A program made the translations under genes and the position numbers. Shown here piece after piece: positions 14,873-57,379 of a DNA stretch of 64,000 nt. The stretch spans positions 60,571,387 through 60,635,386 of the forward strand of contig JASCQW010000027.1 of NCBI GenBank assembly GCA_030264375.1. The letters run 5' to 3'. The notes below the pieces were generated by a model that saw nothing but the letters and a program-made list of their open reading frames with translations, did no database searches and was not told where the DNA came from. How positions within the stretch are numbered: position 1 is the first letter of the stretch; the number at the start of each line of letters is the position of its first letter. Source of the stretch: Carcharhinus longimanus. Taxonomy: Eukaryota.

Positions 14873-15487
14873 ATGATTTGTGCTGCTGCCCAAGTCGCAT
14901 TTCTTCTTCGTGAATCCTTTTTAAGTGCATGTCTGTGTAAGGGCTTAAGACTCAGTGCTTCAATGTATCAATGAATTTGATTTGAAACTTGATGGTTAGA
15001 TTTGCTGATGATCTAAAACTGGAAGATGGAGAGGCAATTGCAAGACTACAGAATGAGAAAAAAATGTTTAGGCTACTGTCAAAATTAGAATCGCGTGACC
15101 TGTCCCTAATATGGGAACGATTGTGTATGAAAAATATACCAAGTTCATATAACATGAACAGGCTCACAGCTTGTGGTGGTTGTGGCTCGGCCAGCAAATA
15201 GAACAAAGGCTTCTTCAACTTCCGTGTTTATAAATTGACTAGTTTATTTTTTTTAACCCCCATCAGACTCGCAGAGTGCAATGAAATTAACCAAAAGAAA
15301 AGGAAGTGTTACTGACACTTTACAAAAATGCTTTGTCATTTGAAGGCTTTAGAGAATGTAATAAGGGACATGTGCGATGGTAAACATGTGGAGAAAGTTA
15401 ATCCAAGATACTACAAATTGTACTGAGCCTGGAAAGTTCAAATTGGAAGTGTCACCCAGGCTGTGATGGGCTCAAATTCTGACTTGC

Positions 15488-15657
15488 CTTCCAAACTCGT
15501 TGCGCAATTATGCTGGGAAGTCTAGGATTTCCCGGGGTGGGGGAATAAGATTGACTTTGATAAAAGTCTTCCTCATCCCTAAATAGCCCGTACTGTAGGA
15601 AAGCATGTGTATTACTACGAAAACATGAACCTTGTCGGCGACACTGGTCGTGGGGAC
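15488..15657 (-). CDS. Gene B coding exon 2 (PHDQCRRQGSCFRSNTHAFLQYGLFRDEEDFYQSQSYSPTPGNPRLPSIIAQRVWK)
   Basis: Acceptor tttatttcag; 170 nt fully open in the phase-1 frame; GC donor AAG|GCAAGT. Confidence 0.75.
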
Positions 15658-15799
15658 CTGAAATAAATGGTTAACGCTTTCAACAAAGGAAAGGGAAAAC
15701 ATGACATTCTTTAAAATGATAATGATGCAATTAGAAAATATGGAAAAGCATATAAAATTAAAAGAATGAAGATTGGGAGTTTTATTTGAGCCCCAGCGC

Positions 15800-16200
15800 T
15801 TTGCATATTATCTAAAATCTTGTAGCTTGCGAGGCCCTTTCGGCAACACCAGAGCTAACGAAGCTATTCTAAGAAAAAAACAGGGAAATCGTTTAATAAA
15901 AACAGACGAGATACAGGACTAGGAGACCGCATTTTCTCCCAGTTACGTAGCGTCTCAGTCGCACAAGAAACTGCACTATGAAGGAACGGGTGTGATAGCA
16001 TCAGTTCCTGGGTCAGACGGATGTTTGGTTTCGTCCTGGTAACGGAGCGCTGAGAAAACTGGAAGTCGAGGACAAGTGCTGAACCTGCGGGTTTGTATTG
16101 CCGCTTTATTTTTTAAAAAATATAATGCGAAGGAGTGATTGATACATTCATTGTAACAACCGGAGGGACTCAAGTGCGGCGATTCAATGGGAGGCTTTTA
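15800..16200. promoter_or_regulatory. Putative bidirectional promoter with RFX X-box-like/MYB-like site (GTCCTGGTAACGG, 16033-16045) and a GGAAGT ETS-like motif
   Basis: Local CpG enrichment relative to the flanks; lies just upstream of the gene B ATG and upstream of gene A; possible gene A 5'UTR donor CGG|GTTTGT at 16091. Confidence 0.55.
15947..16001 (-). CDS. Gene B coding exon 1 (MLSHPFLHSAVSCATETL-R)
   Basis: ATG in CpG-enriched region; donor AC|GTAACT, phase 1, matching exon 2. Confidence 0.65.
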
Positions 16201-16929
16201 TCTGTTCTTGCAGATCAGCTTTTAATAAAACTGCAATCCTTTATGTTTTATCACTAATTAAAACAGAGTTGGTTCCACTGTTGATTTATTGGTTTAAGAT
16301 TAATCGTTCTTATTTAAATATTTCAGAAGATCAGTACCGTAGCGTTTCTGCCCGAGTTACTATGAGGATCACCTTGTCAACCGGCCCAACAGTGTCAAGT
16401 AAAATACTGACAATCCAAAACAACAGTTTCAAAACTTGCGGATAAGACTAAATTGGAGGAGGATTGACAGAATAGGGAAGACGCCAATAAGCGTGCAGAA
16501 TAGCATGTAAATGGGAAACGAACTTCATGTTGGAAAGTGTGAGGTGGAACATAAACACCAGTCTGGCCCAATTAGCCGAATTGCATGTTTAAGTGCTGGA
16601 TATCCTGAATATGCATACCTGATGTAATAATTAGTGGTGAAATCACCAGTGGAGCTCTGTATTGTGGTAGTATTACAGTGAGTTATTGTGAACTCACTTC
16701 ACGTGCAGAGGATTTGGGGAAACATGCCACAATCTACTTCACATACGGAACACCCTTGCTTAGAGTAGATAGCAAGAAAAATGGTCACAGCACTTAAGCA
16801 GTTAAATGCTCCTGGAATTGGCAAACATATTCACTTTAACAAAAACTTGTTGCAGTCAAATGAAGAGAGAGAAAAGAAAGAATCCATTTGAACCTTTCTC
16901 AGCTGATCATAACAAAGGGAAGTGGTTAG

Positions 16930-19552: not shown

Positions 19553-19868
19553 ATTGAAGGTACCCAAAGGCATTGTTGTTATATGAGGTGCTGTTCAAAA
19601 TCAGACGTTAATGGCTGCTCTTCCTCTTTGGAGTAGTTATTGCCCAGCACTTTCAGTATCATGAGTTTTACCTGCCATTTGTCAGTTCAAAGATGAAAAT
19701 TATTCAAGTGTTGGTAGAAGCAGCTATGAGCAATTCATTATTATTGAAAGAGTTGTGAATAGAGCTAACACTGTGTAATTGTGGCTAAACAGTCCTATTT
19801 CTAACTTGTCTTTTGTTGCTGTTCTGCTTTCTTAGGCTCAGCTGAAAAGGAGCTAACTGCTACTCAAC

Positions 19869-19894
19869 ATGAGCACTTTTCCCAAAGAGTTCCA
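19869..19894 (+). CDS. Gene A coding exon 1 (MSTFPKEF-H); whole exon 19836-19894 includes 5'UTR
   Basis: Pyrimidine-rich acceptor ...tgctttcttag at 19835; in-frame upstream TAA; AAC-ATG context; donor CA|GTAAGA; phase 2 matches next exon. Confidence 0.7.
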
Positions 19895-21068: not shown

Positions 21069-21161
21069 TTCAGCTGGAAACCATTTGGCTCGTGTTGAAA
21101 CAGAGTTTATAAAAAATCTCCAGCAACAGATCTATTATCTGGAACTTGAAGCCAACTTTCT
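21069..21161 (+). CDS. Gene A coding exon 2 (SAGNHLARVETEFIKNLQQQIYYLELEANF-L)
   Basis: Polypyrimidine acceptor ttcctcctgtag; open frame with amphipathic helical pattern; ends at U12 donor ATATCCTTT. Confidence 0.9.
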
Positions 21162-21768
21162 ATATCCTTTCTATACCAAGATTGTTCAGTCATTATGCAC
21201 TTATACAAAAGTAATCTTGTGGCATGCACATTTACTTATAGATTGGAAAGTGCCTCAGTAGCTTTAGCTCATGTCCCTGACTTGACTCTCCTCCAAACTG
21301 CTTTTATTATGCAAACTTCAGACGATTTTTGACCATAGCCATTGAATGATTAGATTTAGGGAATGATAGGTGAGACTTGACAAGCCAGTCCTGATGGTAG
21401 AAGGACACTCTAATCATCTAAGCATGCCTGGCATTGCCAGTGTTAGTATACATCAATAACCTGGCTGTATTTAGTGTGAGCCTGTCACCATCAGGCTTTC
21501 ATGTGCCATTTTGGATAAACTAAAGAAATTCAGCTGGTGAAATATTGAGAGCTGGACAGCACTGGTCTCTGAACAAGCACAAAATTGTAAAATACCACAC
21601 AACTTGGACACAGTTCATGGTCAGGGCATGGCCATATTCATTGTAAGTTGCCTCCCTGTTTGATAATTGAGTGACTGGGAATATTTTATCTAATATCAGA
21701 AATCTCTCAATGGTGCGCTCAAGTTTTTAGTAATTTTTTTTGTTCTTAATATCTTAACCAAAATATAC
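21162..21768 (+). other. U12-type (minor spliceosome) AT-AC intron, 607 nt
   Basis: 5' ATATCCTTT; branch point TCTTAAC at 21752-21758; 3' end TAC at 21768; removal joins CT+T (Leu) and keeps the reading frame. Confidence 0.92.
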
Positions 21769-21847
21769 TCGTGATCAAACAAAAAAATCCATCATGCTTC
21801 AACCAAAAGTGGAATTGGAAGCAGAGAGAATGTCACAGAAACTACAG
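21769..21847 (+). CDS. Gene A coding exon 3 (RDQTKKSIMLQPKVELEAERMSQKLQ)
   Basis: Follows AC acceptor; 79 nt; donor CAG|GTAACA, phase 0. Confidence 0.9.
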
Positions 21848-24354: not shown

Positions 24355-24469
24355 GAGATGCGATCTCAAGTTGATGGTCTACACTTAGAACTGAAAAGAA
24401 AAGAAGCCCATTTAAACATGTTGCAGACTGAAAAAGAGAGGCTTGGCAAACAACTTAATCTCTCAGTTG
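24355..24469 (+). CDS. Gene A coding exon 4 (EMRSQVDGLHLELKRKEAHLNMLQTEKERLGKQLNLSV)
   Basis: Acceptor gcgcag, phase 0; coiled-coil sequence; ends at non-canonical donor TG|GCAAGT, phase 1. Confidence 0.85.
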
Positions 24470-24999
24470 GCAAGTTCTGTGATTGGCACGTAGTGCACGA
24501 ACTGAAATTTATTTTTCATATAAATATTCTATGTATAACTTGTTATTAACATGCAGTTTCGTATTTTTGCTTTATGAAAGTTGATTCGTTTACAATACCA
24601 ACAAGTTGGTATTTATATAGTGCCTTTAATTGAGATTCATCACAAGATGGTTCATAGAGCGTTATAAAGCAAAATCTAACTCTGATCACATAAGGAGGAG
24701 TGGATATTAAGCACTAATGAAGCAAGTTCTAAGAACAATGAAGGAGGAGTCCAGGGGCCAGGAGGAATGATAGCACAGGGAGATATGAAGCACAGTAGCA
24801 GAGGAGTCCTAAGATGAACAGAAGCAGCTGCTGAGCAAAAGTAGAATGAGATATTAAGTGTGGCAGTGGAGCAGGCATGAAATCATGAGGAACAGGAGTT
24901 GAAAGCAACTCAAATATTAGAATAAATTGGAGGGATGACATTCGAATCTGTATCGAGAAGAAGGAGAGGCAGAACCTGAGGAAAGAAAAATCGTGATCA

Positions 25000-27590
25000 A
25001 GTTTAAGTATTGAAGTAAGAATGGAAGATAAAAATCTGGAGTAATCAAACCAGACTTAACTAAGGTTTTATATTTCTGGAGATTTAGACAATAGTTGAAA
25101 ACCCTGAGGTATCGCAGACCATCTCAGACCTGTCAAATGTGCATCCTATTCCACATGAGAACTCCAGGATGCTTATTGTATCTGGGACAACTACATCTGC
25201 AGATGGTGTCATCAGATGGAGGATCCTGGGCTCCACATTTTGAAGCCTGAGCATTAGTAGACATCACTGTGGTACATCAGCAAGGCCACATGGATAGAAT
25301 TTTTCTGAAGGTGGTTACCCAGCGGCTTAAGAGTGCACAGAGCGAGAATGTACAACTACTAGATAGACAAGGAGGACTGAACAGATCATGCAAGGATCCT
25401 TTGACTGCATCTTGCTGTCCAACAAATATTCAGTTCTGAATAATTTGAAAGTGATGGTTCCCCCTGGGGAAAACATCCAAAGCCAAGTCCAAAAATGATT
25501 TTGCAGCAGAATAGGAAGAAGGATAGAAACATTGTTGTGATAGAGGATTCTACACTGAGAGGAGCAGACAAGTATATCTGCACTTAGAGACCTGATTCCA
25601 GATTAGTATGTTTTCTTCTTGGTGTCAGGATCAAGGTAATCACTGATTTGTATAAGGTCACTTGAGGGGATTGAATGATCAGCCAGAGGTAATGGTCAGT
25701 AAGATGAGATGGAAAGAGGGATTAACTCCTGCACAATGATTATTAGCAAGCTGAAACATAAATTAAAAAGCAGGAACTCAACTGTAGCAATTTCTGGATT
25801 AGTCCAGACGCCACGTGCCAGCACGTACAGAAACATGAGAATAGTGCAAATGAAAGGGTGGTTGGTGAAATGGGCCAGGGAAGAACTGTTATCCCATGTG
25901 AATATGTTTGCTGTTGTTGGGAAGGATTTAAACTCGCATGGCAGAGGGATGAGAATGAGTATGGATTCAGAACAGGGAAGCAAAGCTGAAGATAATAGTT
26001 CAGAAATTCAGTAAGGGAGTATTGAAGGCAGAGGAAATCAAGGTTGAAGATTAGACAAGGTGATGAATGGCATCTACTTCAGTGCAACAGGCTGTATATA
26101 ATACAGTCCTGTCAGTGAGTTTGAAGGCAGCGAGAAGGCTTGTTAAATCCGGTAGGTAGCCTCACCACTGCTTGCCCACCCATCCCTGCCCTCATTGCAG
26201 TTATATAAGCAGTATGTGGTATTGTGTTGCCCATCTGCCAGTGAGCCAACTGAGGCCCATTTAATGGCCACAATGGCCTTATCCGACCACCTCCGGGGAA
26301 AGCTCCATACCAGTGCCCAACCCAGCATGTTTTCCTGTGTGGGCTGCTGGTGGGCCCTTCAATATTGGCCTCTTGCACTAAAGCAGAGGACCCCTCCTAA
26401 GGAATTACCTCACCAGAGTTTGCCCTCTCCCCACTGGCCTCTAAAATTCTCAACTCCTGACCTCCTCACCAGCAACTGCCAAATTTGGCACCCAAAGAAA
26501 TACCGAAACATTGGTCCAAATCCAGATCCAATGATGCATACTTCTATATTGGAGAATGTTGGAGAACTATTGGCCTCTGGCCAACAGCTCTCTGAGGTGA
26601 AACTTCCTGTTCCTGGAAATTTGTGAAAATTTTGTCTTCATCCTATTAATGGCCAATTGGTCATTAAATAGCTATGCAGCAGCTGGTGTTCCTTTCATGT
26701 GTTTGCAGGAAACCTGGAGCTTCATATAATTCAGCTCAAGGCTGAATAAGGCAGAGGAACTAAAGGCACAGATAGACAGACAGAAGAATGATCTTATAGC
26801 TGTAACTGAAACATGGCACAAAGAAGGTCAGGAAGGGCAGCTCAACATTCCTGTTTTCAGGGTTTAAATAAGAAAATCACAAAAACAATTTGCAATAATA
26901 TAGCACTGTTAATGTATTAAAATGTCCAAAGGCACTTCACAGGAACATTATAAAGTAACATTTGACATTGAGCCAGATAAGGCAATATTAGAACATTTAG
27001 CCAGAAACTTGACCGAAGAGGTAGGATTAGGGAGCCTCTTAGAAGAGAAGTAGAGAAACAAAGAGTTTTAGGGAGAGAATTTCAGAATTTGGGGCCTAGC
27101 TGAAGGCAATATCACCAAATGGTGGAACAATTAAAATTGCAGATTCTCCAGAATTAGATGAGCGCAGATACCTTGATAGGTTGTGAGTCTGGAGGAGCTC
27201 ACAACTGTGAAGAGGGATGACATGCTAGAAAGTTTATCAAATGGGCCGTATGAGTTGATATGAGGAACACAAAAGAGACAAGCATGGTGCTGGGAGAATA
27301 CAGAAGTCAGCAAATAGAAAAACAAATACATTCTGAGAAGTGCAAAAACTATAGGGCATAATAATGGTCGGGGATTTCAACTACCCAAATATTAACTGGG
27401 ATAAAATCAATGAAAGCTGTAGAGGGCAGAATTCTTGAAATACATTTGGGAGAAGATTTTTTAACCAGTATTTAGGAAATCCAACAAGGTTTAACTTTAG
27501 TGAATTAAAGGGTGGAAGGAATTTTCATGGGCAATCATTTTGGTGGTAACAATAATAATTCAGTTAAGCACATAGAGAAGAATAAAAGTT
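25000..27590 (+). mobile_element. Old CR1 LINE: ORF1 esterase and ORF2 endonuclease remnants (interrupted)
   Basis: VVIEDSTLRGAD (~25534), DLIAVTETW (~26790), IMVGDFNYPNINW (~27361). Confidence 0.75.
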
Positions 27591-27719
27591 CTAAAATAAA
27601 AACAAAGTGCTGGAAAAACTCAACAAGTCTGGTGGCATTTGTGAAGAAAGAAGTCTAATATGACTCCTCCACAGAAATGTTTATCCAGCATTTCCGGTTT
27701 TAATTTCAAATTTTTGAAT

Positions 27720-27893
27720 TAATTTATGGGACAAGAACATTGTTGGTCAGGCCAGCATTTATAGCCCGTCCCTCACTACCCTCCATTTCAGAGGGTATTT
27801 GAGAGTCAACCACATTACTGTGGATCTGGAGTTACATGTAAGCCAGACCAGGTAAGGATAACAGATTTCCTTCCTTAAAAGATATTAGCGAAA
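27720..27893 (-). mobile_element. Left half of a split tRNA-headed SINE
   Basis: Aligns with the reverse complement of the intact copy at ~62575-62800. Confidence 0.7.
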
Positions 27894-28004
27894 CATAGAA
27901 CATAGAACATTACAGCGCAGAACAGGCCCTTTGGCCCACGATGTTGCGCCGACCAGTTAAAAAACAATGACCCTCTAACCTAAACCAATCCCTTTTCATC
28001 CATA
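27894..28004 (-). mobile_element. Young CR1-type LINE 3' end, copy A, with (CATAGAA)n tail
   Basis: Tail repeats; 67/68 nt identical to 39354-39421. Confidence 0.85.
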
Positions 28005-29529
28005 TTAGAAAAAGGTACAAGGCTTGAACATAATCCTTTTATTGCAGAGAAAGGTCCCAGCAAATGAATTTATATCACTTCCAACAAGGCTGGATGAACC
28101 ATGTTACAAGCTCAAATAATTATCTTACATTGCTTGTTAGTGTAACTTTTTGGCCCACTTAGGATTGTTCAGCAAGTGCTGCCCAATTGCAGAATCATGT
28201 AATGTTTGGTTTTGAGTTTTGCAAATGCAGGCTGGTTTAGTATGGCCTGTGCTCTGCCTATTACAAACAGCTGAGGGAAAACACTGTTTCCTTCAATCAA
28301 CCTATTGTTGGGACATATGGCTGGCATATCTGGCACCGCATCAGCACTGACCTGGCATTGCTTCAGAAAATGACTCCGTTTAGCAATATCGACCACTCTT
28401 TATTCTAAATTCATACATAGACAGATACATTCTATTTCTTCCTGCTGAAATATCATTGGCCACATCGGCTCTGTTCTTGCCTCTTACATCTGTCTAATCG
28501 TTTTACAAGGCAACAAGCAGGGCACGGCGGCCTGACAATGACCACAGCGGACAGTCTGGGAGCCGGGGCAACCCTGCCACTGCCATCAGGAACTATGGCT
28601 GCAAATTTCCATCCTGTCCAAAGTCAATGTATGTTCAGCTGGTCTGTCAAATTTTTAACCCCCCTCTCAATATTTTCTACTGTGGGTGGGATGGGAGAAT
28701 CCCAGCCTTTGGTTGTGAGGAAAGGTTTTCATGTTAACTAGTTTTCCTGCAGTAGTGAAGACTGAGCAGAGATAGTGGGGATTTTTAATGTTGCAAAAAT
28801 GTTTGGAAACACTGAATAGGCAAATAATATTTATATATTTTGGTGGGAATCAGTTGCAAGCCATGCGTTTACAATGGCCATTAAGAAAATGAGGAGAAAA
28901 GTGAGGACAAATTTATTTCCAGAGAGTATCGATGGAACATTTAATGTTCACAGAACCATGGGGCAAAGAAGGGGGTTATTATGCCTGTGCTGGAATTTTG
29001 AAAGAACAATTCAGTTAGTTCCATTATCTTAATTTCTTCCCCAGTGAGCAAAAGGCAAAGTTGCCATCGTCCCAGCTGACTATAGCCTACTTTCCCCTTT
29101 GAGTGGAAGAGTTGACTGATGGTGATTTATTCTGAGGGTCACCACACCTCAGGTGAGGCCATAAAGAGGGTAAAATGGATCAACACTTGAAGCAAAGCAG
29201 GTACCATGTTCAGGAGTGAGAGCAGGGCATGTGTTTAAGTTTAGCTTAACAAAGAGCTGGCACATAAGGAGAAGCAGACTTCTTTTATGCTGCAGACATC
29301 TATATGGTGCAAACATCAAACCATTATTGAGCAAGGAATGGAAAAAGCTTTCCTGAGCCTGGCTCGATATGGAAAATGTAAATGCACAATATATTGCACT
29401 CTTGCAGCTGAACCAAATATATACAATTTCAAATCATTTTTTAAGAAATCAGTAAAGCAATTTGGCATCAATAGTGTGAGCACTTAGAAAAGGTCATACT
29501 GCTTGACATCCGATGAAGCAGAACTACAG

Positions 29530-31810
29530 CTGGCTCTTTATACTTTAGTGGAGTGAAAGGCAGAGTTAACATTTCAAACCCAATCTTACTCCTCACTGGA
29601 ACATCGAAATTCTGAAGAAAATTCATATTGAACTCTGTTTCTCACTCTACAGAGATACAAGATCAGCTGTGTTTTACCAGCAATTTTTGTTTTTATTCCC
29701 GATTTCCAGCATCCACAGTATCTCGCTTTTAACTTTATGCTTTGAATTGTTTTAAAGCTTCTCAGTGGCCTTGCTGCCCTCTTTTTCCATCCTTACTGCT
29801 TGAAGAGAGACACCTGTCTGTCCACCTCACAGTCCTCCAACTCAAAAGAGCCCGCTTCTACCTCCTTCCCAAAATCCACTAACAGGACTGTCTTGGCAGG
29901 CTCATCATCTCAGCCTGTTCCTGCTCAACTGAACTTATCTCTTCTAGTCTCTCCCCACCTATGTCTAAGACTTGTCCGATGCTCACAGTCATAGCAACAA
30001 TTTCCAGTTTCTTGTCCCTAATTGCTTCCTCTTTACTATGGACATCCATACCCTCTAAACCTCCACCCCCACCAGGATGGTCTGAGGGCACTTTGCTTCT
30101 TCCTAGAATGCAGGCCTGAAATTCCCCACCTAACACCACCCTCCTCTAACTGGGAACACTTGTTTTCTCACTGAAAACAATTCTCCTTTAATTTCACTCA
30201 CTTCTTCCAAATAAAATATGTTATCATGGGTAGCTGCATGGATCCCAGTTATGCCTGTCTTTTTGTGGAGAATGTGGAACATTCACCCGGAACTGGAGAA
30301 CTTCAGCAACTTGGTTTTGAATTTCCCTCAACTTCACACGATCCATCTCTGACACTTCCCTTCCCGTCTTTGATTTCCTTTTCACTATTTCTGGGGAAAA
30401 AAGCTGTTTACTAATTTTAATTATAAGCTCAATGGCTCCAACAGCTTACCTCAACTATTCATATGCTGTTTCATGTAAGGACTCTATTCCATTTGCCCAG
30501 TTTCTCCATCTCCATTGCAACCATTCTGATGACACAACAGTGCTGCAGATGTCTTTCACTTAACTCAACTGAGGATTCCACTGCCCTCCACCACCACCAC
30601 CACCACCACGACAGCTGCACTGTGGTCGATAGAGTCCTCAACCACACATGCCCGAGCCATTTTTTGTACTTTTGCCCTTACCCCTGCCCCTCCTTCCCAG
30701 GACCACAACTGGGTCACTTTTCTCTTCACTTTCTATCCCACCAGCCTTCACATTCGAAGGATCTCCTCTGCCATTTCTGTTCCCTCCAGCCAACACCAAA
30801 CACATCTTCCCACCGCCTCCCCTGGCAGAATTCTGAAGATTATTCCTTCCTTAACAATCCGGTGTATCCCTCAATCGCCCTCAGCACCTCGCCCCTTTCT
30901 CATTCCATTTTCTAATACAATTGCAGTAGGTATTACCTGCCCTTTTACCTTTCACTCCTCACCATCCAAAGCCCCAAACATTCCTTCCACATGAAGCAGT
31001 GATTTACTTGAATTTCTTTCAATCAAATCTGCTGAATTTGCTGTTCAAATTGAAGTCTCTGGTACCTCAGAGAGACCAAACACAGATTTGATGAGCACTT
31101 TGCTGAACACTCCACTCAGTGTTCCTGCTTCCACCCCTGGGACACACAGATACGATGGTGTCATTTAAGGGGCAACTAGACAAATAATGAATGGAATGAT
31201 ACGACTCCGTAAGTGCATACAGTTTTAGTTCAGAGGGGCACCATGATCAGCGCAGGCTTGGAGGGCCAAAGGAGTTGTTCCTGTAATCCATTCTTTGTTC
31301 TTTGAGGTGTCCTCAGCATACCCTCTAATTCTATATTTTACTCTTGTTCAATGCTTTCAAATTATACTCTAAATCTTTCAAAATCTCTAATAATGCTGCA
31401 CTGTATTCTGCACCCTCTGCTTTCCTCCTCCGCTATGGACCCTATGAACAGTATGCTTTGTCTGTTTGGCGTGCAAGCAGCAATACTTGTCATTGTATCC
31501 CAACATACATGACAATAATAAATCAAATCAAATCAAAATTTCATCTCTCCCTTTTCCCTAACCCAGACCTTCCTTTTTGTTCTCCCTCCACCTCCCCCAT
31601 GTCAACAGCACAAAACCTATCACATTTCCACCATCTGTGGAAGGAGGAGGAGCTGATGTCTTGAATCGAACATGATTCTTCGCTTCCAAAGCAGAGTCAT
31701 ACCTGACTCGAAACATCAACTCCATTCCTTTTTCTGTAGATGCTGAGATTTCCAGTACTTTGGTTTTTTCAAAATCTCAGACACCCATTATTGGCAGTAT
31801 TTTGCTTTCA
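29530..31810 (+). mobile_element. Degenerate Penelope-like element (RT + GIY-YIG remnants, terminal repeat pieces)
   Basis: MGSCMDPSYACLFVENVEHS (RT); YLRETKHRFDEHFAEH at ~31063 (GIY-YIG YIGET-like); ccagcatc..cagta terminal motif. Confidence 0.8.
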
Positions 31811-32559
31811 TTTCTCCGATCCGTTAGCTGTTCCGAAATTCTGCCTGCAGGCTGAAATCAGAGTCAGAGTCTGACTCTGACTCTGACTCTGGGGGGAGGA
31901 AGCGGCAAGCTGAGTGAGGTGAGTGGCCACTATAACCATAGCTTCTCACTCATACTGCACTCTCGAGTTAGTCTCAACACTAATCATGCGTTAGCACTCA
32001 CACTGCACATTGGAGTTAGTCTCAATGCTGTGTCAATTACAAAAATATGATATAACTGAGGGATGAAGCACTATAGCTGAGGAGAAACTATTTGAACTCG
32101 ACACTGAACATGCCAAGCAGAAAGAAGTTTATTCATTGCCCAGCAATGTATCAATTTGCTCCCTTCCAAAAATAAATCAATCAGAGTTGTACTTATTGGT
32201 AGGGTGGGGGCATGTAATTGCCTTGAATTTGGAACTAAAGTATGTTTTTAACATTTTATGAGCTGCATGACATGTTTTTCTTTTCCTCCTTGCCAAGAAA
32301 TTGCTCAGAGCATTTTATAAGTTTGGAGATTAACAATGTTTTGGATGGGGGAATCGTAAACTATCCACAATGTTTTTCTTAAAGAATTGGAATCTGTTAT
32401 ATTCAATGTGTACTCTCATTTCTATGACAATCGTCATCAAAACAAGCCTTTGACTGACTTTTAAGCAGGATGTTTTTAATGACAGAACTGTAAGGGAAAA
32501 ATAGAAAATGTGAGCCTCAAAATCTTTGTGGGTTAGTCTAAATCAACAACTGCATTAAT

Positions 32560-32727
32560 ATAGAAACATAGATGATAGGAGCAGGAGGAGGCCATTTGGC
32601 CCTTCAAGTCTGCTCCTCCATTCATTACAATCATAGCTGATCATCCAACTCAATAGCCTAATCCTACTTTCTCGCCATAACATTTGATCCCATTCACCCC
32701 AAGTGCCATATCCAGTCACCTCTTGAA
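32560..32727 (-). mobile_element. CR1 LINE 3' end
   Basis: atagaaacatag tail + ggagcaggaggaggccatttggccc. Confidence 0.8.
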
Positions 32728-32827
32728 TACTAGTGTTAAGTAGTAACTTAGACATTAAGGAAGATTCCTCCTAATCCTTCTACATGCGCACCTTTACCTG
32801 GGCAAGTAAGCCTATTTCTGCATAAAA

Positions 32828-33126
32828 TCATAGAATCACTACAGTACAGAAGGAGGCCATTAGGCCCATTGAGCCTACATCGACAACAATCCTACCCAGC
32901 CTATCCCGGTAACCTGTGTTTACCCCATTAATCTCCCTGACACTAGCAGTTTTGCTTGGCCAATCCACCTAACCCGCAAATTTTTTGACTGTGGGAGGAA
33001 ACCAGAGCACCCAGAGGAAACCCACACAGACATGGGGAGAATGTGCAAACTCCACACAGGCAGTGACCCAAGGCTGGAATTGAACACGGGTCCCTTGAGG
33101 CAGCAGTGCTAACCACTGTGCTGCCA
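32828..33126 (-). mobile_element. HE1-like SINE
   Basis: Head/body/tail match the other copies. Confidence 0.88.
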
Positions 33127-33641
33127 TATCACTTGCATAATTACATTTCACATATAAAATCCTAACCTTTTAATCTAGAAAGGAAACATTTGATACAAAC
33201 ACTGGCTGAACTTAAAGGTAGCCAGTGAAATTGCAGAATATTTATCCATTCCCATTTCTCTTCTTGCTATTGCCATTTGTACTCTACATGTCTCGCTCAT
33301 TTTCTCTATTGACTCCTCTCCCAATCCAAGCATCATTTTCTAGAGGGTGTTTAATGATTTCATTCTATAGATTTTTTAAAATCTGAAATGCAGATGGAGG
33401 GTCATATTCATTAATATAGAATACCAAAGCCGAATTGAGTAGGAAAGAGCCTAAGGTAAATAATCCCCCTTGGATCGAAACCAGTTACCACGCAGCCATT
33501 CAGTGTGAAAAAAAAATTCAAGTAATGATACTCTGCAAAGAGACCCAAGCTTGAATCCTAGAGTGAACTGACAACTGATCTCTTCAGAGAAGATCACATC
33601 ACAGAATCCCTACACTACAGAAAAAGGCCATTCTGCCCAAT

Positions 33642-34441
33642 GGGCCCTATTTTACCATTTTGATTCGAAGTGCTGGGCGGACTTGAAACTAAGAGTGTTT
33701 CAGGCCCGACTTTTAGACCCGTTCTCAGGCGCCCCCATAAGCCTTCTGCCTGGAAAAATATCAGCGATTCCAAATCGAGCGGCAAAGGCCCATGGGCAGG
33801 GTTTAACATGCCCAAAACTCTACACCTCCAACTGCGCATGCACAGAAAAAACGTGATAGAATGTAGCTTCCCTCCCAGGCTGGATAATGCCTCCTCAAAC
33901 CCCACAGACATTGCCCCATCTCCACAATATTACTGACCCCACAATATTATCCTCCCACCCCCCCATCATCCAGACCTATCACGGCCCCTCCCCGATCTCA
34001 GGCAGAGTGACAGCGGACCTCCCTTCCTCCCCCACTGATCTCAGGCAAAGTGGCAGCCCCCTTCCCTCCCCCCAACTGATCTCAAGCAGAGAACCGTCGA
34101 ATGCTCGGCACCCACCTCCTCACTAACTGGAGCGTCCAAATCGGACTTTTATGGAGCATGTCGGTTTCGCACTGATTTTGGATGGATGAAGGCGTTGGTA
34201 AAGGGGGAGGTGCCGGTAAAGTTGGGTATGCCACCCACTGAGTCAATTTAAATGCATGCAAATGCCTTTAAATGGCCGTTGCACCCATTTCAGGCACTTT
34301 CCCGATCGCAGACATTTTCAGGTCTTGGTAAATGGGGAACCAGCATGGAGGTGGGCACGGTTCGCGCTATACACCTCAAGCCTGACTTTATCAAACTTTC
34401 ATTCCCGAAAACAGGTGCAATGCGATGGTAAAATCGGGCCC
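33642..34441. mobile_element. Non-autonomous DNA transposon (MITE, PIF/Harbinger-like termini) inserted into a SINE
   Basis: 17-bp TIRs GGGCCC(T/G)ATTTTACCAT, 16/17 match; SINE sequence resumes on both sides. Confidence 0.8.
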
Positions 34442-34710
34442 ATCGAGTCTGCACTGACCACAATCCCACCCAAGGCCTATTCCCATAACTCTCATTTACC
34501 CTACTAACCCCTGACACTGGGGTTAATTTAACATGGCCAATCAACTTAACTTGCATATCTTTGGAGTGTGGGAGGAAACCAGAGCACCCAGAGCAAACCC
34601 ACACTGACACGGGGAGAACATGCAGACCCCACACGGTGACGGAAGGCTGGAATTGAACCCAGGTCCCTGGTGCTGTGAGGCAGCAGTGCAAACCATTGCA
34701 CCACCGTGCC
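34442..34710 (-). mobile_element. HE1-like SINE (tail remnant at ~33600-33641)
   Basis: Head GGCACGGTGGTGCAATGGTT, B-box GGGTTCAATTCC on - strand. Confidence 0.85.
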
Positions 34711-35706
34711 AACCTAACTTCTTTCCAAAGTCAGTGTCGTCAGTATTGATCAGGTGTAGCCACTCGCAAATGCACATTGCATGGGAATAACAGAAAAGAT
34801 AGACAAAGGTTCCTAACTCAGTCAACGCTTCAGAGAACCCAACACTAGCTCCGTGCAGAGCTCCACAGATATCCACAGCATACCACAGCCACAATCCATG
34901 AACTCACCTGCTAAGGAGAGGCAAGTTACCAAACTGAAGCTGCAAGCTAACAGTTCACGTTGTGGTCATCACACAGCCTATCACGTTTCTCATTAGCCCA
35001 TGACAAAATCGAAAGCAACTGAGTGAGCGGGTGAGAGAGAGAGAGGAGAGGAGAATGTGAGAAATAAAAAACGAGAAAAGACATGGAAATGGGAGGAAAA
35101 ACGCATACAGCAGCAGACAGATGGGGAAGCACAGCAGACAGGGAAAAGGGCAGGAAAGTGAAAGCACAACAGAAACAACTGAAGCTTTAGTATTGACTGT
35201 GGTGTAAAAAAATTCTCTGCCTAAAAATGAACTTAGAGGGTCTTTCTAGAAGCCTTGGCAGAGAACAGTGTGCTCTTTGGTTTGCTTCTACATGCCATGT
35301 TTTTCCAAGCTATCAAAAAAATGTAATTCAACAAGTGAAGAAACCACTTCCAAAAGCAGACACACTCTGCAGCTTTGGAAACATAAATACTTACCTGCAT
35401 TCATTAAATCATGTGTCACCTGTGAAATGCTGCGTCTGAAATAACAGTTGAATGTACAGAGCCACAAGAGAGGTCTTTATTTGCAGTGTTTGCCAACTAA
35501 AACTTGGACTAAGAAACTGAAATCTTTATTTGCACGAAGGTTAAAATTATTTAATTATATGTTCGTTGTCTGATATTCAAGCTACAATTAACCAAGGTGA
35601 CCAAATTACATTCTGCCAGAATTAAACCATGCTAAGTGCATAAGCATTACACACCCTATACTGTATTTGAGCTTAATGTATCTCACTTGATCTTGGGCAT
35701 CTTAAA

Positions 35707-36047
35707 ATGAATGTTTCTGAATCATGGGTGAGTCCAAAGCTAGGGGCCATAGTTTGAGGATAAGGGGTAAACTTTTAGGACTAGGGTGAGAAAAAATTTC
35801 CTCATTCAGAGAGTGGCGAATCTGTGGAATTCACTACCACAGAAAGTAGCTAAGGCCAAAACATTGTGTGATTTCAGAAGAAATTAGATATAGCTTTTGG
35901 GCTAAAGAGATCAAGAGATATGGAGGGGAAGAGGGGGTTCAGGACATTGAATTTGATGACCAGTTTTGATCATAATGGATGGTGGAGAAGGCTTGAAGGG
36001 CTGAATGATCTACTCTATTTTCCCTGCTTCTATTTCCTATGCTTCTA
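35707..36047 (+). mobile_element. CR1 LINE 3' end
   Basis: Similar to 23393-23760. Confidence 0.85.
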
Positions 36048-39000
36048 TCTTTTGCAATGTAACATAGAAATAAATATGGAAAGGACATAGGGGAAAATGG
36101 GGAAAACTGTGTTTTCTGAAATTAGATGTCTGAAGCTGATGGGTTGGGTTAAGACGGAGAACACAACACCATCAAAAGGAAACTAAACAGTCAAGGTGCT
36201 GGAAGATCACTATATGATGGCCTGAGGCATTTTATTGTGATTTTAGTTCAGCAGATCTCACCCTTTCTCTGTGTTGTTTTGCCGACTTCTAGGTATCAAA
36301 ATGAGTTCGCTACAAGATTTTGTGAAAGAGAATCATACATGCCAATAAAGCTCATCACCACTGATCAGGCACATTAGCAAAAACCATCAAGTGTGCTAAA
36401 TCAGGTGAAGGAAAGGTTTTAATAGGCCACAGTCCTTAGCTTTACAGAGAAAACAAAGCACGTACATTCAAGTGTCACCTGAATGGTCCTTGCACGCATG
36501 GGCAATCTCATGCCGTGACAAGGGTGCTAGCATGCACTGACAGGAAGGAATGCTTTGTCACACAGCACTGCATGAGAGGAATCAGGGGCCGGATTAAGAC
36601 ATAAAAACTGTGCCAAAACAATTCAAAGGGATTATCTTTTGTAATACAAGAAAACTGAAATGAATTAACCCTTTTGGCATCTAGGCCTTTAAAATAAGCT
36701 TCATACAGTTTCTGCAAACAAGGTCACCTCAGAGAAAAGATTAATGGCCTGAATATTGAAGGAAGTGTTGATAATAAAAGTATGACTTTTTTCCTAAACA
36801 CATTATGGCATAGGCTCATCTTTAGGGTTAAAGACTACAACTCAGTGTATAAAATATCTCATGTTAAAACAAACCACAAGAAAGTTTTATGCTCTGGATA
36901 GGAATAAGATTTTTGAATTAAATTTATTATCTCCAAAGAATATTAAAATTGGTGCAAATTGCGATGGAAAAGTGACATTTTTATAGAGGTAGAGTTTGAC
37001 TATATTAAATAAAAATGCAATTTTAAGTGTGTAACCTTATTGCCAAATCAGACAAATGGGCTGAACTTCTCTGGTTGCTCAAGCCGGTGGGATTCTCTGG
37101 TCCTGCTGGCAGCAAACTCCTGCCCGTGAGTTTCCCGCCGGTGTGGGGTAACATCAATGGGAATTCCCATTGACAGCAGCGGAACCAAAAAATCCCACAG
37201 CTAGCAAACAACGTGCCACCTCTCACCAGCGGGAAACATGTAGCTGAAGAGCAGAGAATGTCACCTCTGATTTTTGTTAAAGCCCTGTTCATTTTTCTGG
37301 AATTCAAGAAGTGTAGAATATTTTCAGTGATAGATTACATCCTTACTTTAAATGGCCCAGATATATGCTAGCTTTTGTATCAATACAATGGTGAGGGCGT
37401 TAAATCACTAATGAGGAAAGTCAAAATTGGTTCAGTGGTGTGACCTTGAGGAGATGGTCTAACTGCTGCATTGTATGCAGAGTGACAGAAAAACAAAACA
37501 AATTTTGGAAAGGTTAGGGTCCTTGCCAGTCTTAATTATGAAATTGCATTTGGATCCCTGCATGCACATCCATGCTTACTGCTTTGAACAGGCATTTGCC
37601 TTTAAAACAACATTGTCAGTATTACTTCCACCCAAAGCAGTAACCAGTCATCTGAATCAGAACTATATCAGAAGCATTAATCTATTTTTGCTGCAGTCAT
37701 ACTTTTTCTTGTTGTCCATTAGTAAAGATGGCAGTGGTGTGAATGTTGTCCTTGTTGGATATTTCTTCCCTGATTAGACTACTACACAAACAGAGCTCAC
37801 TCATCGCAACGTATTGCAGAGGATAAATCCACAAGAGCTAGGAAATGCATTTCCGGCTGTCTGGCAATTCAAGCAAATCATCACTCAGTAAGGACTTCTT
37901 CCAAAGGCCAAATATCTGTGGTATTGCTAGAAATTTTATCCAAAGGGCTGTTCTTTCTAATATACATACATACCAGGCCACACTAATTCATATTTGTATA
38001 TGTGTGAATAATTGTGTTGGTGCATTCGCAAGAGACACAGTTAAGCAAACTGATGTCTTTAACGTATTTAAAGCCATTAAGCTTAAGTCCTAAAGCATCC
38101 TACTGCAAAATATCTGGCCTTCCAATGGTTTCCCTTGAAGAATGACTAATCTTCTGGCCAAAAATGAACTCAAAATCCTCCACTTTCCAAATATTTGTGA
38201 TTCACAGTAGGCAAAGCCAATTAGAGGGGCTTGCTACGGGAGATAGTGTTACAACAATCCCAAATTTTATTGCGATTCCCATGACTACAATTGTGATGAG
38301 GTTATCATGGCAGGTCTTTCTTGCATAATGGGTACTTCTACACAACGTATTTCAGAGAATGGTAGCAGAAGCATCAGAAATGTCAGGTAGTCAGGAATTC
38401 TATTAGAGACCAGTGTGTACCATCGATCTGTCTGTGGTACACACAATATGTTACTCACTGTTACCACTAACATTTCTGATCCATCTAGTGTAAATGTTTC
38501 CCATTGGCAATTACTTACTTCTAAACAGCTGTCCAAACATGACAAAATATCCCAACTAAAATAGCATGAACAAGATTACGAGAGTACAAAAAGTCTAATG
38601 TATGAAAAGAGAACATTAAGCAAAAAGGATTTGTGATGGTTCCGATGCCAGGTTTGAGTTCCAACTGAATAAAGCATGTTTTTGAAGGGACAGTAACCCA
38701 ATCCATTTCAGAGAGCTTGCGGAGAGAAAGTAATAATGAAAGCTACCAGTTGCTTCCTGTCAGTTAGTGGCCAGTTCTACTTTAAGGACAGAGATTAACC
38801 TTTCAAAATGCCAGTGAAGCATTCCAGTCACGTTAACCAGCAGAGGATGGGTTCATTGAGAAAGCCCAGCATTTAGAGAGTTAGTTCATGGAGTCAAAGA
38901 CCTGGCTACTATGTCAGATCACATCGTGAATAGACTTTAATGGGTTATTTTTGTTTCAACTGAATGGTGATATGACTGAGATGAATCAACACTGATTCAA

Positions 39001-39353
39001 AGGAAATCAAGGGCAGAATTTTACTATCCCACATGGATGGGTTTGCCCGTGGGAGGGGCCTATAAAATTATGGTCAATTAATGGTCGCTTTCTGTTCTGG
39101 CTGCAAGGTGGTGCTCTGAGACAGGAGGGTGTCACACACGCATGCTCACACAAATACATACACACATGTACACATGCACAATAAGCATGTGTCCTGTCTT
39201 TTCTGGCATAAGCTTTCTCTCCCTTGAGATAAAGTCTCGTAGTGCTATCTTCTNNNNNNNNNNNNNNNNNNNNNNNNNNNNNNNNNNNNNNNNNNNNNNN
39301 NNNNNNNNNNNNNNNNNNNNNNNNNNNNNNNNNNNNNNNNNNNNNNNNNNNNN

Positions 39354-39452
39354 CACGATGTTGCGCCGACCAGTTAAAAAACAATGACCCTCTAACCTAA
39401 ACCAATCCCTTTCCATCCATAAACCTATCCTTGATAGGTTTATGGATGGAAA
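39354..39452 (-). mobile_element. Young LINE 3' end, copy B, with fold-back hairpin at its truncation point
   Basis: Near-identical to 27937-28004; perfect 20-bp inverted repeat at 39410-39452. Confidence 0.85.
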
Positions 39453-39453
39453 C

Positions 39454-39632
39454 ATGGTGGGTTTTTATGACAATTGACAATGGTTTCATGGTCTTCATTA
39501 GACTTTTAATTCTGGATTTTTATTGAATCCCATTTTCACTATCTGCCATCACAGGATTTGAACCCGGATCCCCAGATCTTGCCCTGGATCTTTTGATTAC
39601 TAGTCCATTGACAATACCACAATGCCACAGCC
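39454..39632 (-). mobile_element. Right half (head) of the split SINE
   Basis: B-box GGGTTCAAATCC on - strand; continues the element broken at 27893. Confidence 0.72.
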
Positions 39633-39659
39633 TCCAGCATCCAAAGTATTTTTACTGTC

Positions 39660-40630
39660 AAATTTACTAAACTGAATTGTGATTTGGTAAAATTAGACTG
39701 GAAACAGCTAGTTGAGAGTAAATCAGTGTCAGAGCAACAGGGAGGATATCATCAAGTGGGTAAAGAGGGTTAAGAACCTTTAGGTTCTCACACTTGGGGT
39801 CTGAAACATTGCTGCAACTCCAATATCAAAGAGCACACAGGGTAGGAAATGGCAAAAATAAAGAAAGCTTAGGTCAGGGACTGAGAGCTCAACACTCAAG
39901 AAATCCAGAAGGATGATAGACATAGTGGTTAGCACTGCTGCCTCACAGCACCAGGGATCCAGGTTTGATTTCCAGCTTGGCTCACTGTTTGTGTGGAGTT
40001 TGCACGTTCTACCTATGTCTGCTGAGTTTTCTCTGGCTGCTCTGGTTTCCTCCCATAGTTTGAAAGATGTGCTGGTCAGGTGCATTGGCCTGAACAGGTG
40101 CTGGAGGATGGCAACTGGGGGAATTTCATTAGTAAACTCACTGCAGTGTGAATGTAAGCCTTACTTGTGACTAATAAATAAACTTAAAGTGCAGTGGTAA
40201 AATTAAAAATGGAATTGGAAAAACAAAGGGAGGGCAGGAAAAATATTGACAAATAAAATTAAGAAAACCAAAAAGGTAAGCAGTTTGTGGAGGCAGATAA
40301 ATGACTCCTAATGAATACTTCTTCCCCTCTTCAGAAAAGAGGAGGACAGTTTAGATGTTGCATTTAAGGAGGAGAGTGAAACATTGGGTAAAATAAATAT
40401 AGTGAGATAGAAAATATTAAGGGTTTTTTGAAAATCAGTAAAATCAGGAGGCCATGGTGAAATGTACCGCAGTTTGCTAAGAGAAGCAATGAAGGAAATA
40501 GTGGAGGATCTGACCATTATTTTCCAATTCTCCCTGCCTATAGGCATGGTGCTTGAGGACTGAAGAACTACTGAAGTTGTATTGTTTTTAAAAAGGGAGA
40601 AAGGGATAGACTGAAGCCAATCAGCTTAAC
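39660..40630 (+). mobile_element. Continuation of old CR1 ORF2 (interrupted by a SINE at 39922-40185)
   Basis: LLREAMKEIVEDLTIIFQFSL...VLED motif. Confidence 0.7.
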
Positions 40631-42908: not shown

Positions 42909-43093
42909 ATTCACATTTGAAGGAAAAGCAGTCACTCGTGGAAGAGATAATGCAGCTCAAGAGGATGAAGGAGATCACAGATACAGGGTTCTCATACAAA
43001 GAAATGGAATTACTGCAGAGCAAGCAGGAACTGGAACGACAGCTCAGTAAACGAAAGAATAATGAGCATAAAGTTACAATTATAAAACAACAG
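42909..43093 (+). CDS. Gene A coding exon 5 (D-SHLKEKQSLVEEIMQLKRMKE...TIIKQQ)
   Basis: Acceptor ctgcag, phase 1 (G+AT=Asp); donor CAG|GTAAAT; coiled coil. Confidence 0.88.
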
Positions 43094-45133: not shown

Positions 45134-45288
45134 ATTGAACAGAGGGCAGAACAAGAGAAGATGCTTGAGACAGNNNNNNNNNNNAAGAATTTGGAGCTTC
45201 TAAAAGTCCAGTCAGCTCTCCATGAAATGGAGGAAAAGTACTATTCCAAGACAGCTACCATGCAGGATAAAATTGCACGTAATTTCAG
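45134..45288 (+). CDS. Gene A coding exon 6 (IEQRAEQEKMLET..KNLELLKVQSALHEMEEKYY...IARNF-R); contains an 11-N gap
   Basis: Acceptor ttttgttttcag, phase 0; donor AG|GTAGCA, phase 2; frame preserved across the Ns. Confidence 0.85.
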
Positions 45289-47035: not shown

Positions 47036-47415
47036 GTAATGCATTTTGGAAAGTCTTATCCAGATAGGAAATGTACAGTAAATGGCAGAACCCTTACGAG
47101 TATTGATAGGCAAAGGGATTTGGGTGTACAGGTACACAGGTCACTGAAGGTGACAACGCAGGTGGAGAACGTAGTCAAGAAGGCATACAGTATGCTTGCC
47201 TTCATCGGCTGGGGCTTGAGTTTAAAAATTGGCAAGTTATTTTGCAGCCTTATAGAATCTTAGTTAGGCCTCACTTGGAATATAATGTTTAATTCTGGTC
47301 ACCACACTACCAAAAGGATGTGGGGGCTTTGGAGAGAGTACAGAAAAGATTTACCAGGATGTTGCCTGGTATGGAGGGCATTAGCTATGAGGAGAGGTTG
47401 CAGAAACTTGGTTTG
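47036..47415 (+). mobile_element. CR1 LINE RT C-terminal fragment next to a gap
   Basis: MHFGKS...RDLGVQVHRSLK...ALERVQKRFTRMLPGMEGISYEERLQKLGL. Confidence 0.9.
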
Positions 47416-50395: not shown

Positions 50396-50639
50396 GTGCT
50401 CCATGCTGCTAGGTCCTGGAAGGATCATGTGATCCACAAACGATTGCCCCCTTAAAGGGCCATGCTATCACATTTCTCCCCCTTTTAAGTTCCCTTACAA
50501 TCATACAAAAAAAATCTTACAACTACGTGCAGTCAAAACAGGATTTCCAAAAGGGGGGCACTNNNNNNNNNNNGTGAGTATATTATCAAATAAATAGGTT
50601 GGACTAAAACCTGGTGTTGTCAGACTTTTTACTGTATCA

Positions 50640-52140: not shown

Positions 52141-52171
52141 AGTGTACCTTTAAGAAATGTATTTTTTAAAT

Positions 52172-52916: not shown

Positions 52917-53079
52917 AGATGAGATCCGTCAGCTTCACCAACAACTCCGTGAGAAAGAGGTGATGAGAGGGCAGGACCGCTTCCTCAGAAGCAAAATGGC
53001 AGATGATCGTGCTGCTTTGACCAAGGAGAATGCTGTGCTGCATTCACAGACCCTTGAGCTTAATAAGCAATTAGAAAGG
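52917..53079 (+). CDS. Gene A coding exon 7 (DEIRQLHQQLREKEVMRGQDRFLRSKMADDRAALTKENAVLHSQTLELNKQLER)
   Basis: Acceptor cttttcaccccag, phase 2; donor AGG|GTGTGT, phase 0. Confidence 0.88.
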
Positions 53080-55852: not shown

Positions 55853-56011
55853 GAGAGGATGCTAAAGGAAGAGACAGATTTTTGCCGAACTTCCAGTGCA
55901 GTTCAACTGATAACTGTAAAAGGCAAAGAAGAACAACTGCGGTATGAGGTTAAAAGGCATAAGGAGCTTCTGGAAATTGAGAAAAGAAAATTTAAAGAAC
56001 TGATGGAAAAG
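55853..56011 (+). CDS. Gene A coding exon 8 (ERMLKEETDFCRTSS...KFKELMEK)
   Basis: Acceptor tgttgtag, phase 0; donor AAG|GTAGTT; 53 codons of charged coiled coil. Confidence 0.87.
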
Positions 56012-57211: not shown

Positions 57212-57379
57212 ATTCTGCTCCTCGAACAAGGGAAGACCTCTGTTGAACTGAATGAGGCCACTGTGCGTAGTCGTATAGCTGAGACAGAAAGCAGATTTGC
57301 AAGTGGCGAAGAAGAGAACCTCCAGCTGCAAAGAGACAAAGCACTACTGGTTGACCTTATCACTGATTTACAGAATCAG
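57212..57379 (+). CDS. Gene A coding exon 9 (ILLLEQGKTSVELNEATVRSRIAETESRFASGEEENLQLQRDKALLVDLITDLQNQ); gene continues downstream
   Basis: Branch CTAAC ~57184, then ttttccctGAG acceptor; donor CAG|GTATCT; no stop codon reached. Confidence 0.82.

What the first reader, a model, noticed from the sequence alone, without database searches (positions are those of the whole stretch)
21162..21768. U12-type AT-AC intron in an unidentified coiled-coil gene
Seen: the intron starts ATATCCTTT, has TCTTAAC ending 10 nt before a terminal AC, and lacks a polypyrimidine tract between branch point and acceptor. Removing it gives an uninterrupted frame (…LELEANF-L-RDQTKK…). Established: these are the hallmarks of minor-spliceosome (U11/U12) introns. 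They make up well under 1% of vertebrate introns, AT-AC is the rarer subtype, and GT-AG-only gene finders misannotate them. Inference: an old intron position in a gene that may be missing from minor-intron catalogues.
Basis: partly seen in the sequence, partly recalled or inferred. Interest (0 to 1): 0.8.

Follow-up and report, generated by a model that had tools for sequence, protein, structure and literature searches.

The report
Ancient minor intron in shark gene
A shark gene for an unnamed rod-shaped protein carries a rare AT-AC intron of the minor-spliceosome kind, and traces in related proteins suggest the same intron sits at the same spot in a sponge, a coral, amphioxus and both vertebrate copies of the gene; the intron type is well known, but this gene and its history seem undescribed.

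Summary
Confirmed. Bases 21162-21768 form a 607-nt, phase-2 intron. It has an ATATCCTTT donor, TCTTAAC with adenosines 11-12 nt before the end, and an AC acceptor. Removing it gives a 381-codon frame with no stop, gap-free and 86% identical to a catshark protein. No GT/GC-AG pair tested reproduces the conserved junction.

The host is an unnamed coiled-coil gene with two vertebrate paralogues and relatives in sponges and chytrids. No named mammal, bird or teleost was among 62 and 81 hits.

Misannotated relatives betray the intron. Seven of 185 exon-2 carriers run on as 'YP', the translated U12 donor (frogs, amphioxus, coral, sponge). Nine of 11 unjoined models have Thr before exon 3, the translated AC acceptor. 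A sponge isoform pair differs by exactly a 25-residue insert reading YPL...T. Other lineages appear to have lost the intron or switched to an AG end.

Not shown: junction reads for this species, dependence on the minor spliceosome, genomic DNA of orthologues, absence from introns.info. A new member of a known intron class, probably as old as animals.

The parts
21162..21768 (+). U12-type AT-AC intron, 607 nt, phase 2, second intron of the coding region
   Evidence: junction colinear with 8 of 8 shark/ray proteins
21162..21170 (+). U12-type 5' splice site ATATCCTTT
   Evidence: only ATATCCTTT on either strand
21752..21758 (+). Branch-point motif TCTTAAC; candidate branch adenosines 21756 and 21757 (-12, -11)
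   Evidence: optimum 11-13 nt in PMC3584512 passage
21743..21750 (+). Second branch-like TTCTTAAT just upstream, ending 18 nt before the intron end; use unknown
21767..21768 (+). AC 3' splice site, no pyrimidine tract between branch motif and AC
19836..19894 (+). First coding exon (ATG at 19869, MSTFPKEF); preceded by a pyrimidine-rich AG, so an untranslated exon probably lies upstream
   Evidence: tblastn 8 of 8 identical to P0002
21069..21161 (+). Coding exon 2 (93 nt); holds the most conserved motif of the family
21769..21847 (+). Coding exon 3 (79 nt)
24355..24469 (+). Coding exon 4; followed by a GC-AG intron (24470-42908, donor GCAAGT)
42909..43093 (+). Coding exon 5
45134..45288 (+). 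Coding exon 6 (holds an 11-base N run at 45174-45184)
52917..53079 (+). Coding exon 7
55853..56011 (+). Coding exon 8 (159 nt, phase 0 on both sides; missing in 3 of 8 shark/ray isoforms)
57212..57379 (+). Coding exon 9; the exon(s) for the last ~65 residues were not found in the window

Best explanation
This is a genuine U12-type (minor-spliceosome) AT-AC intron in an intact elasmobranch gene for an unnamed ~447-residue coiled-coil protein. SHOWN: termini, motifs, spacing and frame. FROM ESTABLISHED KNOWLEDGE: the U11/U12 di-snRNP reads the ATATCCTTT donor and the branch motif together, no pyrimidine tract or U2AF is needed, and U4atac/U6atac.U5 complete catalysis. One of the two adenosines branches and the AC 11-12 nt on is the acceptor. 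The flanking introns are ordinary GT-AG. INFERRED: if the intron is retained (607 nt, not a multiple of 3), a stop comes 32 codons in, so slow minor splicing would limit full-length mRNA. INFERRED from protein traces: the intron was in the animal ancestor with an AC end. It was kept in a sponge, a coral, amphioxus and both vertebrate paralogues, lost in several invertebrate lineages, and perhaps switched to an AG end in some lophotrochozoans.
For: Frame and colinearity: 381 codons, 0 stops, 0 gaps, 85.8% to P0006. Exact junction in 8 of 8 shark/ray proteins; no GT/GC-AG alternative. Criteria from PMC3584512 passages: 5'ss and branch define the class, no pyrimidine tract, 11-13 nt spacing. Phase-0 avoidance from PMC7367187 passages. 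Donor trace: 7 of 185 proteins with the exon-2 motif continue Y-P-[F/L/C], the reading of R|TAT CCT T.., against a YP frequency of 0.00029. Five are named: Rhinophrynus, Gastrophryne, Branchiostoma floridae, Desmophyllum pertusum, Oscarella lobularis. Acceptor trace: Thr (AC|N) precedes exon 3 in 9 of 11 unjoined models, background 5.2%, binomial 1.4e-10 (the models are related, so this overstates it). Four are from paralogue B (P0242, P0304, P0306, P0310). Oscarella X1 and X2 differ only by a 25-residue insert, YPL...FRT, at this position. The Gastrophryne model shows S-L-T (readable as TCC TTA AC) five residues before the Thr. A coral-cluster protein of 492 aa on a 1544-nt contig, probably a transcript, has the joined form. 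Tree: window sister to Scyliorhinus in clade A, 100/100.
Against: No RNA reads for this species and no genomic DNA of any orthologue could be reached, so conservation rests on back-reading of proteins. YP cannot tell an AT start from a GT start. The sponge AC end rests on one residue (5% by chance). The branch motif departs from the recalled consensus TTCCTTAAC at two positions. The donor motif alone is not above chance in 64 kb. 2 of 11 acceptor traces are Arg, not Thr. No intronIC or PWM score could be computed.
Confidence: 0.92

Rival explanations
1. An AT-AC intron spliced by the major (U2) spliceosome, like the rare U2-type AT-AC introns of SCN4A and SCN5A.
For: Such introns exist: 15 in human against 169 U12-type AT-AC (PMC1557818 table). 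A T-rich stretch lies upstream of the branch motif.
Against: That class is defined by a U2-type donor apart from the first base. Here +3 to +9 read ATCCTTT, a U12-like branch sits at the right distance, and 0 of the 7 other introns of the gene have one.
Confidence: 0.03
2. The junction is not used. The motifs are chance or a relic, and the shark transcript starts in exon 3 or uses cryptic GT-AG sites.
For: 39 of 140 named models do not join exons 2 and 3 cleanly. Several begin at methionines in exon 3, among them the Mustelus model P0070, 92% identical to the window. 18 frame-keeping GT/GC-AG pairs exist.
Against: Exon 2 holds the most conserved columns of the family from chytrids to sharks. 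All 18 alternatives delete or replace conserved residues. The truncations are what a finder blind to AT-AC would produce.
Confidence: 0.03
3. The intron is a real U12 intron in vertebrates, but the sponge, coral and amphioxus traces are coincidence or independent gains, so it is not animal-ancestral.
For: Many short unnamed invertebrate ORFs show exons 2 and 3 joined on genomic-looking contigs (34 of 188 rows), so absence is common outside vertebrates. Chytrid and nematode models show no trace.
Against: YP appears at the identical codon in three separate invertebrate phyla, with about 0.05 expected by chance among 185. Creating a U12 donor anew is regarded as improbable while loss and conversion are common (PMC3584512 passages). 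Tunicates are reported to have lost many minor introns (PMC10639083 passage).
Confidence: 0.1

Closest known systems
U12-type AT-AC spliceosomal introns (minor spliceosome; about 26% of human minor introns per PMC10639083, 169 in human per PMC1557818)
   Same: AT-AC ends, ATATCCTTT donor, CTTAAC branch 11-12 nt from the end, no pyrimidine tract after the branch, non-zero phase, GT-AG neighbours, deep positional conservation.
   Different: Nothing in mechanism. The branch motif is slightly off consensus and doubled. The host gene has no detected human orthologue, so human-anchored orthology analyses would not see it.
U2-type AT-AC introns (SCN4A, SCN5A)
   Same: Terminal dinucleotides only.
   Different: Those have a U2-type donor; this has the U12 donor and branch.
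Generic long coiled-coil proteins used as automatic names for the relatives (SYCP1-like, AKAP9-like, EEA1-like, myosin-like) and Atlas look-alikes (CCDC89, SCLT1, ODF2, ODF2L, CCDC171)
   Same: Almost wholly helical: predicted helices 15-252 and 287-434.
   Different: No Pfam family is shared by more than 4 of 33 members. Atlas hits share only 106-141 of 256 features and disagree with each other. PDB matches are unrelated coiled coils. The family appears to have no name.

Membership tests
U12-type intron | Conserved 5' splice site RTATCCTT(Y) | tested here: met
   ATATCCTTT at 21162, at the homology-fixed exon end; consensus recalled and matching examples in the PMC7367187 table
U12-type intron | Conserved branch motif (T)TCCTTRAC | tested here: met
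   TATCTTAAC; core CTTAAC intact, two upstream positions differ from the recalled consensus; absent from the last 45 nt of the 7 other introns
U12-type intron | Branch point about 11-13 nt from the 3' splice site | tested here: met
   adenosines at -12 and -11; optimum from PMC3584512 passage
U12-type intron | No distinct polypyrimidine tract before the 3' splice site | tested here: met
   4 of 10 pyrimidines after the branch motif; weakly discriminating, as two U2-type introns of the gene have 9 of 17 against 8 of 17 here
U12-type intron, AT-AC subtype | AT and AC termini at the junction that restores the protein | tested here: met
U12-type intron | Classifier score (intronIC or MIDB weight matrices) | not testable with these tools
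   no matrices or program on the script machine
U12-type intron | Excised in vivo by U11/U12/U4atac/U6atac.U5 | not testable with these tools
   needs RNA data and knock-down
U2-type AT-AC intron | U2-type donor apart from the first base | tested here: not met
   donor is ATATCCTTT; definition in PMC1557818 passage
Named coiled-coil families (SYCP1, AKAP9, EEA1, ODF2, SCLT1, CCDC89) | Shared Pfam domain or clear homology | tested here: not met
   0 families for P0002 and P0006; best family in 4 of 33 members; Atlas feature counts below the 170 guide
Ciliary or centriolar protein (works-like lead) | Localisation to basal body or axoneme; presence only in flagellated lineages | tested here: inconclusive
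   named relatives in three chytrids, sponges, cnidarians, lophotrochozoans, a nematode and deuterostomes; most distant hits unnamed; no match to solved axonemal chains at E<0.001; localisation untestable

The most novel reading that the evidence does not exclude
An AT-AC minor intron dating from the last common ancestor of sponges and other animals sits in an undescribed, probably ciliary or centriolar, coiled-coil family. The family was duplicated in early vertebrates (one copy next to TPD52L1, one next to TPD52, judged from fused gene models) and both copies were later lost in mammals, birds and teleosts. One orthologous position would then show retention, repeated loss and an AT-AC to GT-AG switch, in a gene that human-anchored analyses cannot see. 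It would be a new candidate link between minor splicing and cilia.
Probability: 0.35. Interest if true: 0.55.

Novelty: new member of a known kind. Interest (0 to 1): 0.4.

Why it matters
AT-AC U12 introns are a textbook class, about a hundred or more per vertebrate genome, so the intron alone would not surprise a specialist. Three things add value. First, it gives a likely sponge-to-shark conserved minor intron in a gene with no detected human orthologue, a class that human-anchored reconstructions leave out. Second, the intron explains why many models of this family are truncated or carry junk inserts, which may be one reason it is unnamed. Third, 'YP' and 'T' read-through traces let one track phase-2 minor introns, and even their 3' dinucleotide, from protein databases alone. 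If the protein is ciliary it joins the reported link between minor splicing and cilia (search listing and abstract openings only).

Tried and rejected
Donor motif enrichment in the window: not above chance. Rfam scan of the whole window: 0 matches at gathering scores, so no hosted snoRNA or snRNA. Folding of 21150-21780: no special structure, z = +1.16, 18 of 20 shuffles fold as well. Pfam: nothing for the family; 1 weak match below its cut-off among 129 upstream reading frames. The 47 downstream frames listed were not scanned. PDB with the 33-sequence profile: 57 matches at E up to 1, all generic coiled coils. ESM Atlas twice: discordant coiled-coil look-alikes. AlphaFold gave two long helices with pTM 0.30; I ran no fold search, since a bare helix would be uninformative. 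The C-terminal exon(s) were not found in the window with a shark profile. No TPD52-domain match in the window, so synteny rests only on fused models of relatives (P0061, P0063, P0311). An in-frame AC at 21779-21780 would delete four conserved residues and was rejected. Literature: six locus tags or accessions, 0 papers; sponge/Nematostella/U12, 2 papers listed, neither on this gene by title; TPD52 synteny, 8 listed, none on it by title; shark plus U12, 1 of the 12 listed held the intron terms and was not read; chytrid/centriole profile, 0 papers. Six genus names had 0 occurrences in the 79,853 characters of text held for the PMC10639083 supplement; species labels in its figures may not be held as text, so this says nothing on coverage. 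Three unnamed Logan rows (P0039, P0253, P0315) were left out of all counts. No collection on hand holds eukaryotic genomes, so orthologous intron DNA stayed unchecked; viral and metagenome contigs were closed.

Full report
Observation. The stated features are all present. Bases 21162-21768 (607 nt) begin ATATCCTTT and end AC. TCTTAAC lies at 21752-21758, followed by 10 nt with 4 pyrimidines, and its adenosines are 12 and 11 nt from the end. ATATCCTTT occurs once in the window on either strand. The looser RTATCCTTY occurs twice against 2.93 expected, so the motif alone proves nothing. The case rests on position: homologous proteins fix both exon ends independently. There the chance of the donor is about 3.7e-5, and of an AC with a branch motif at the right distance about 3.4e-4.

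Gene model. A 44-residue query around exon 2 found 8 shark and ray proteins among 12 candidates, all reading EANFL-R-x-Q at the junction. Aligning them to the window gave nine coding exons from 19869 to 57379. Joined, they give 381 codons with no stop (4 X from an N run), gap-free and 85.8% identical to the Scyliorhinus protein P0006. The AT-AC intron is the second coding intron, phase 2. The others are GT-AG except intron 4 (GC-AG). Of 25 slid placements, only AT-AC and a non-splice TA-CT pair give F-L-R. All 18 frame-keeping GT/GC-AG pairs nearby delete or replace conserved residues. The last ~65 residues were not found in the window. The source is an elasmobranch: in a 51-row tree the window is sister to Scyliorhinus (100/94).

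Intron class. By passages of PMC3584512, the U12 class is defined by its donor and branch sequences, lacks a pyrimidine tract and has an optimal branch distance of 11-13 nt; AT-AG and GT-AC mixes are disfavoured. All testable points are met. None of the other seven introns has a U12-like branch in its last 45 nt. U2-type AT-AC introns need a U2-type donor (PMC1557818 passages), which is not the case. Phase 2 fits the bias against phase 0 (PMC7367187 passages). The branch departs from the consensus I recall at two upstream positions, and a second CTTAAT lies just before it. Mechanism, from PMC8329584 passages: joint recognition by U11/U12, then U4atac/U6atac.U5; minor splicing is proposed to be slow and rate-limiting. 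Here retention would shift the frame and meet a stop 32 codons into the intron. That this regulates the gene is inference.

Host family. A profile of the shark proteins found 62 relatives among 8000 scored candidates. They span sharks and rays, turtles, squamates, amphibians, coelacanth, lungfish, echinoderms, a hemichordate and molluscs. A second search from a divergent frog protein found 81 among 5466 and revealed a second vertebrate paralogue in the same groups plus an alligator. The tree separates clade A (19 rows, 100/100, with the window) from clade B plus lamprey (15 rows, 97/91). Python models fuse A to a TPD52L1-like protein and a Xenopus model fuses B to TPD52, which suggests ohnologues; this is inference from names, not tested synteny. 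A full scan found 309 representatives at E up to 0.001, of which 150 were shown. Of 30 looked up, named ones include amphioxus, lamprey, corals, two sponges, Macrostomum, Plectus and three chytrids. No named mammal, bird or teleost appeared. That is not proof of loss: many representatives are unnamed, one (P0065) is an unplaced bony-vertebrate A protein, and two are only about 70% like turtle B. The protein is predicted as two long helices. It has no Pfam family, no true PDB relative and only discordant Atlas look-alikes. A ciliary or centriolar role is a lead from the chytrid-plus-animal distribution and the look-alikes, nothing more.

Age of the intron. No orthologous DNA was reachable, but a phase-2 intron leaves readable traces in faulty models. 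Reading through the donor gives L-Y-P, and reading through an AC acceptor gives Thr before exon 3 (an AG gives Arg or Ser). I sorted 314 proteins: 143 joined, 34 with exon 2 and a divergent continuation, 7 YP, 1 apart, 11 with exon 3 only, 118 with neither. So 7 of 185 exon-2 carriers continue YP, with about 0.05 expected. They are two frogs, Branchiostoma floridae, the coral Desmophyllum, the sponge Oscarella and two unnamed records. In all seven the third residue is F, L or C, as a donor ending TT would give. Among 11 unjoined models with a residue before exon 3, 9 have Thr: whale shark, a newt and two frogs in A, a ray, a skate, a frog and a snake in B, and the sponge. I set aside two models that start at exon 3, one weak match, one that was in fact joined, and four YP models that lack the exon-3 start. 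The Oscarella isoforms differ only by a 25-residue insert running from YPL to Thr, the look of a retained 75-nt intron. The Gastrophryne model shows donor, an S-L-T branch reading and Thr together.

Results against a simple picture. Two unnamed lophotrochozoan-like records have Arg before exon 3, one after F-L-N (readable as TTC CTT AAC). This suggests an AG-ended U12 form there. In 34 short unnamed frames among 188 joined rows (15 separate representatives), exons 2 and 3 are joined and then run into Val and unrelated sequence at the intron-3 position. One cluster lies on a 1-Mb contig. These look like genomes that lack the intron; the nearest named proteins are lophotrochozoan, tunicate or, weakly, cnidarian. 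Tunicate loss agrees with a passage of PMC10639083. Chytrid models show no trace either way. YP cannot separate AT from GT, and the sponge AC rests on one residue.

Annotation and catalogues. Exons 2 and 3 join cleanly in 101 of 140 named models, against 110, 130, 135, 135, 122 and 121 at the next six junctions. Isoforms count separately, 5' ends are often incomplete anyway, and many intron-3 failures are models that start inside exon 3. MIDB orthology blasts back to human (PMC11347168, section 9 read whole; passages), and the ancestral reconstructions of PMC10639083 include human in the alignments (passages). A gene without a human orthologue escapes those analyses. But introns.info covers 3107 annotated genomes, and correct shark models exist, so the intron may well be in its tables; I could not check. 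Five searches found no paper on the gene or the intron; subscription journals are mostly outside the library.

Verdict. A real U12-type AT-AC intron (0.92), working as such introns are known to work, and a new member of a known kind. The added interest lies in its probable animal-wide age (about 0.85 given the intron), the mixed history of retention, loss and subtype switch, and an unnamed host family that may be missing from mammals. Interest 0.4.

Noticed in passing
window 24470-42908: Intron 4 of the same gene is an 18.4-kb GC-AG intron (donor G|GCAAGT); the nearby GT at 24466 would break the frame. The gene thus has two non-GT introns.
   Followed up: partly
window 57209-57211: The acceptor of intron 8 reads GAG, which is rare; the frame and homology demand it. 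It could be a variant or an assembly error.
   Followed up: no
window 55853-56011: Exon 8 (53 codons, phase 0 on both sides) is absent in 3 of 8 shark/ray isoforms and in some reptile models. It covers the end of the low-confidence break (256-285) between the two predicted helices.
   Followed up: partly
window 15500-16500: CpG observed/expected rises to 0.93-0.95 against 0.06-0.2 nearby; a likely promoter about 3.5 kb before the first coding exon, which has its own acceptor at 19835.
   Followed up: partly
window 14986-15198 (+): A 71-codon open frame after an AG that reads like protein; no Pfam or PDB match. Unexplained.
   Followed up: partly
P0061, P0063, P0311: Gene models fuse paralogue A to TPD52L1 (python) and paralogue B to TPD52 (Xenopus), hinting that the two copies sit in paired duplicated regions.
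   Followed up: partly
window 47264-47400, 52171-52449, 59830-60174, 50146-50424: Frames that resemble (recalled, not searched) LINE reverse-transcriptase ends and a retrotransposon fragment, several beside N gaps.
   Followed up: no
window, 10 N runs: 1305 N bases, one run inside exon 6; the missing last exon(s) may lie in the gaps near 59916 or 63012, or beyond the window.
   Followed up: partly
P0128, P0234-P0236: The nematode Plectus sambesii has the exon-2 motif, although nematodes lack motile cilia (recalled); this weakens a strictly motile-cilium reading of the family.
   Followed up: no
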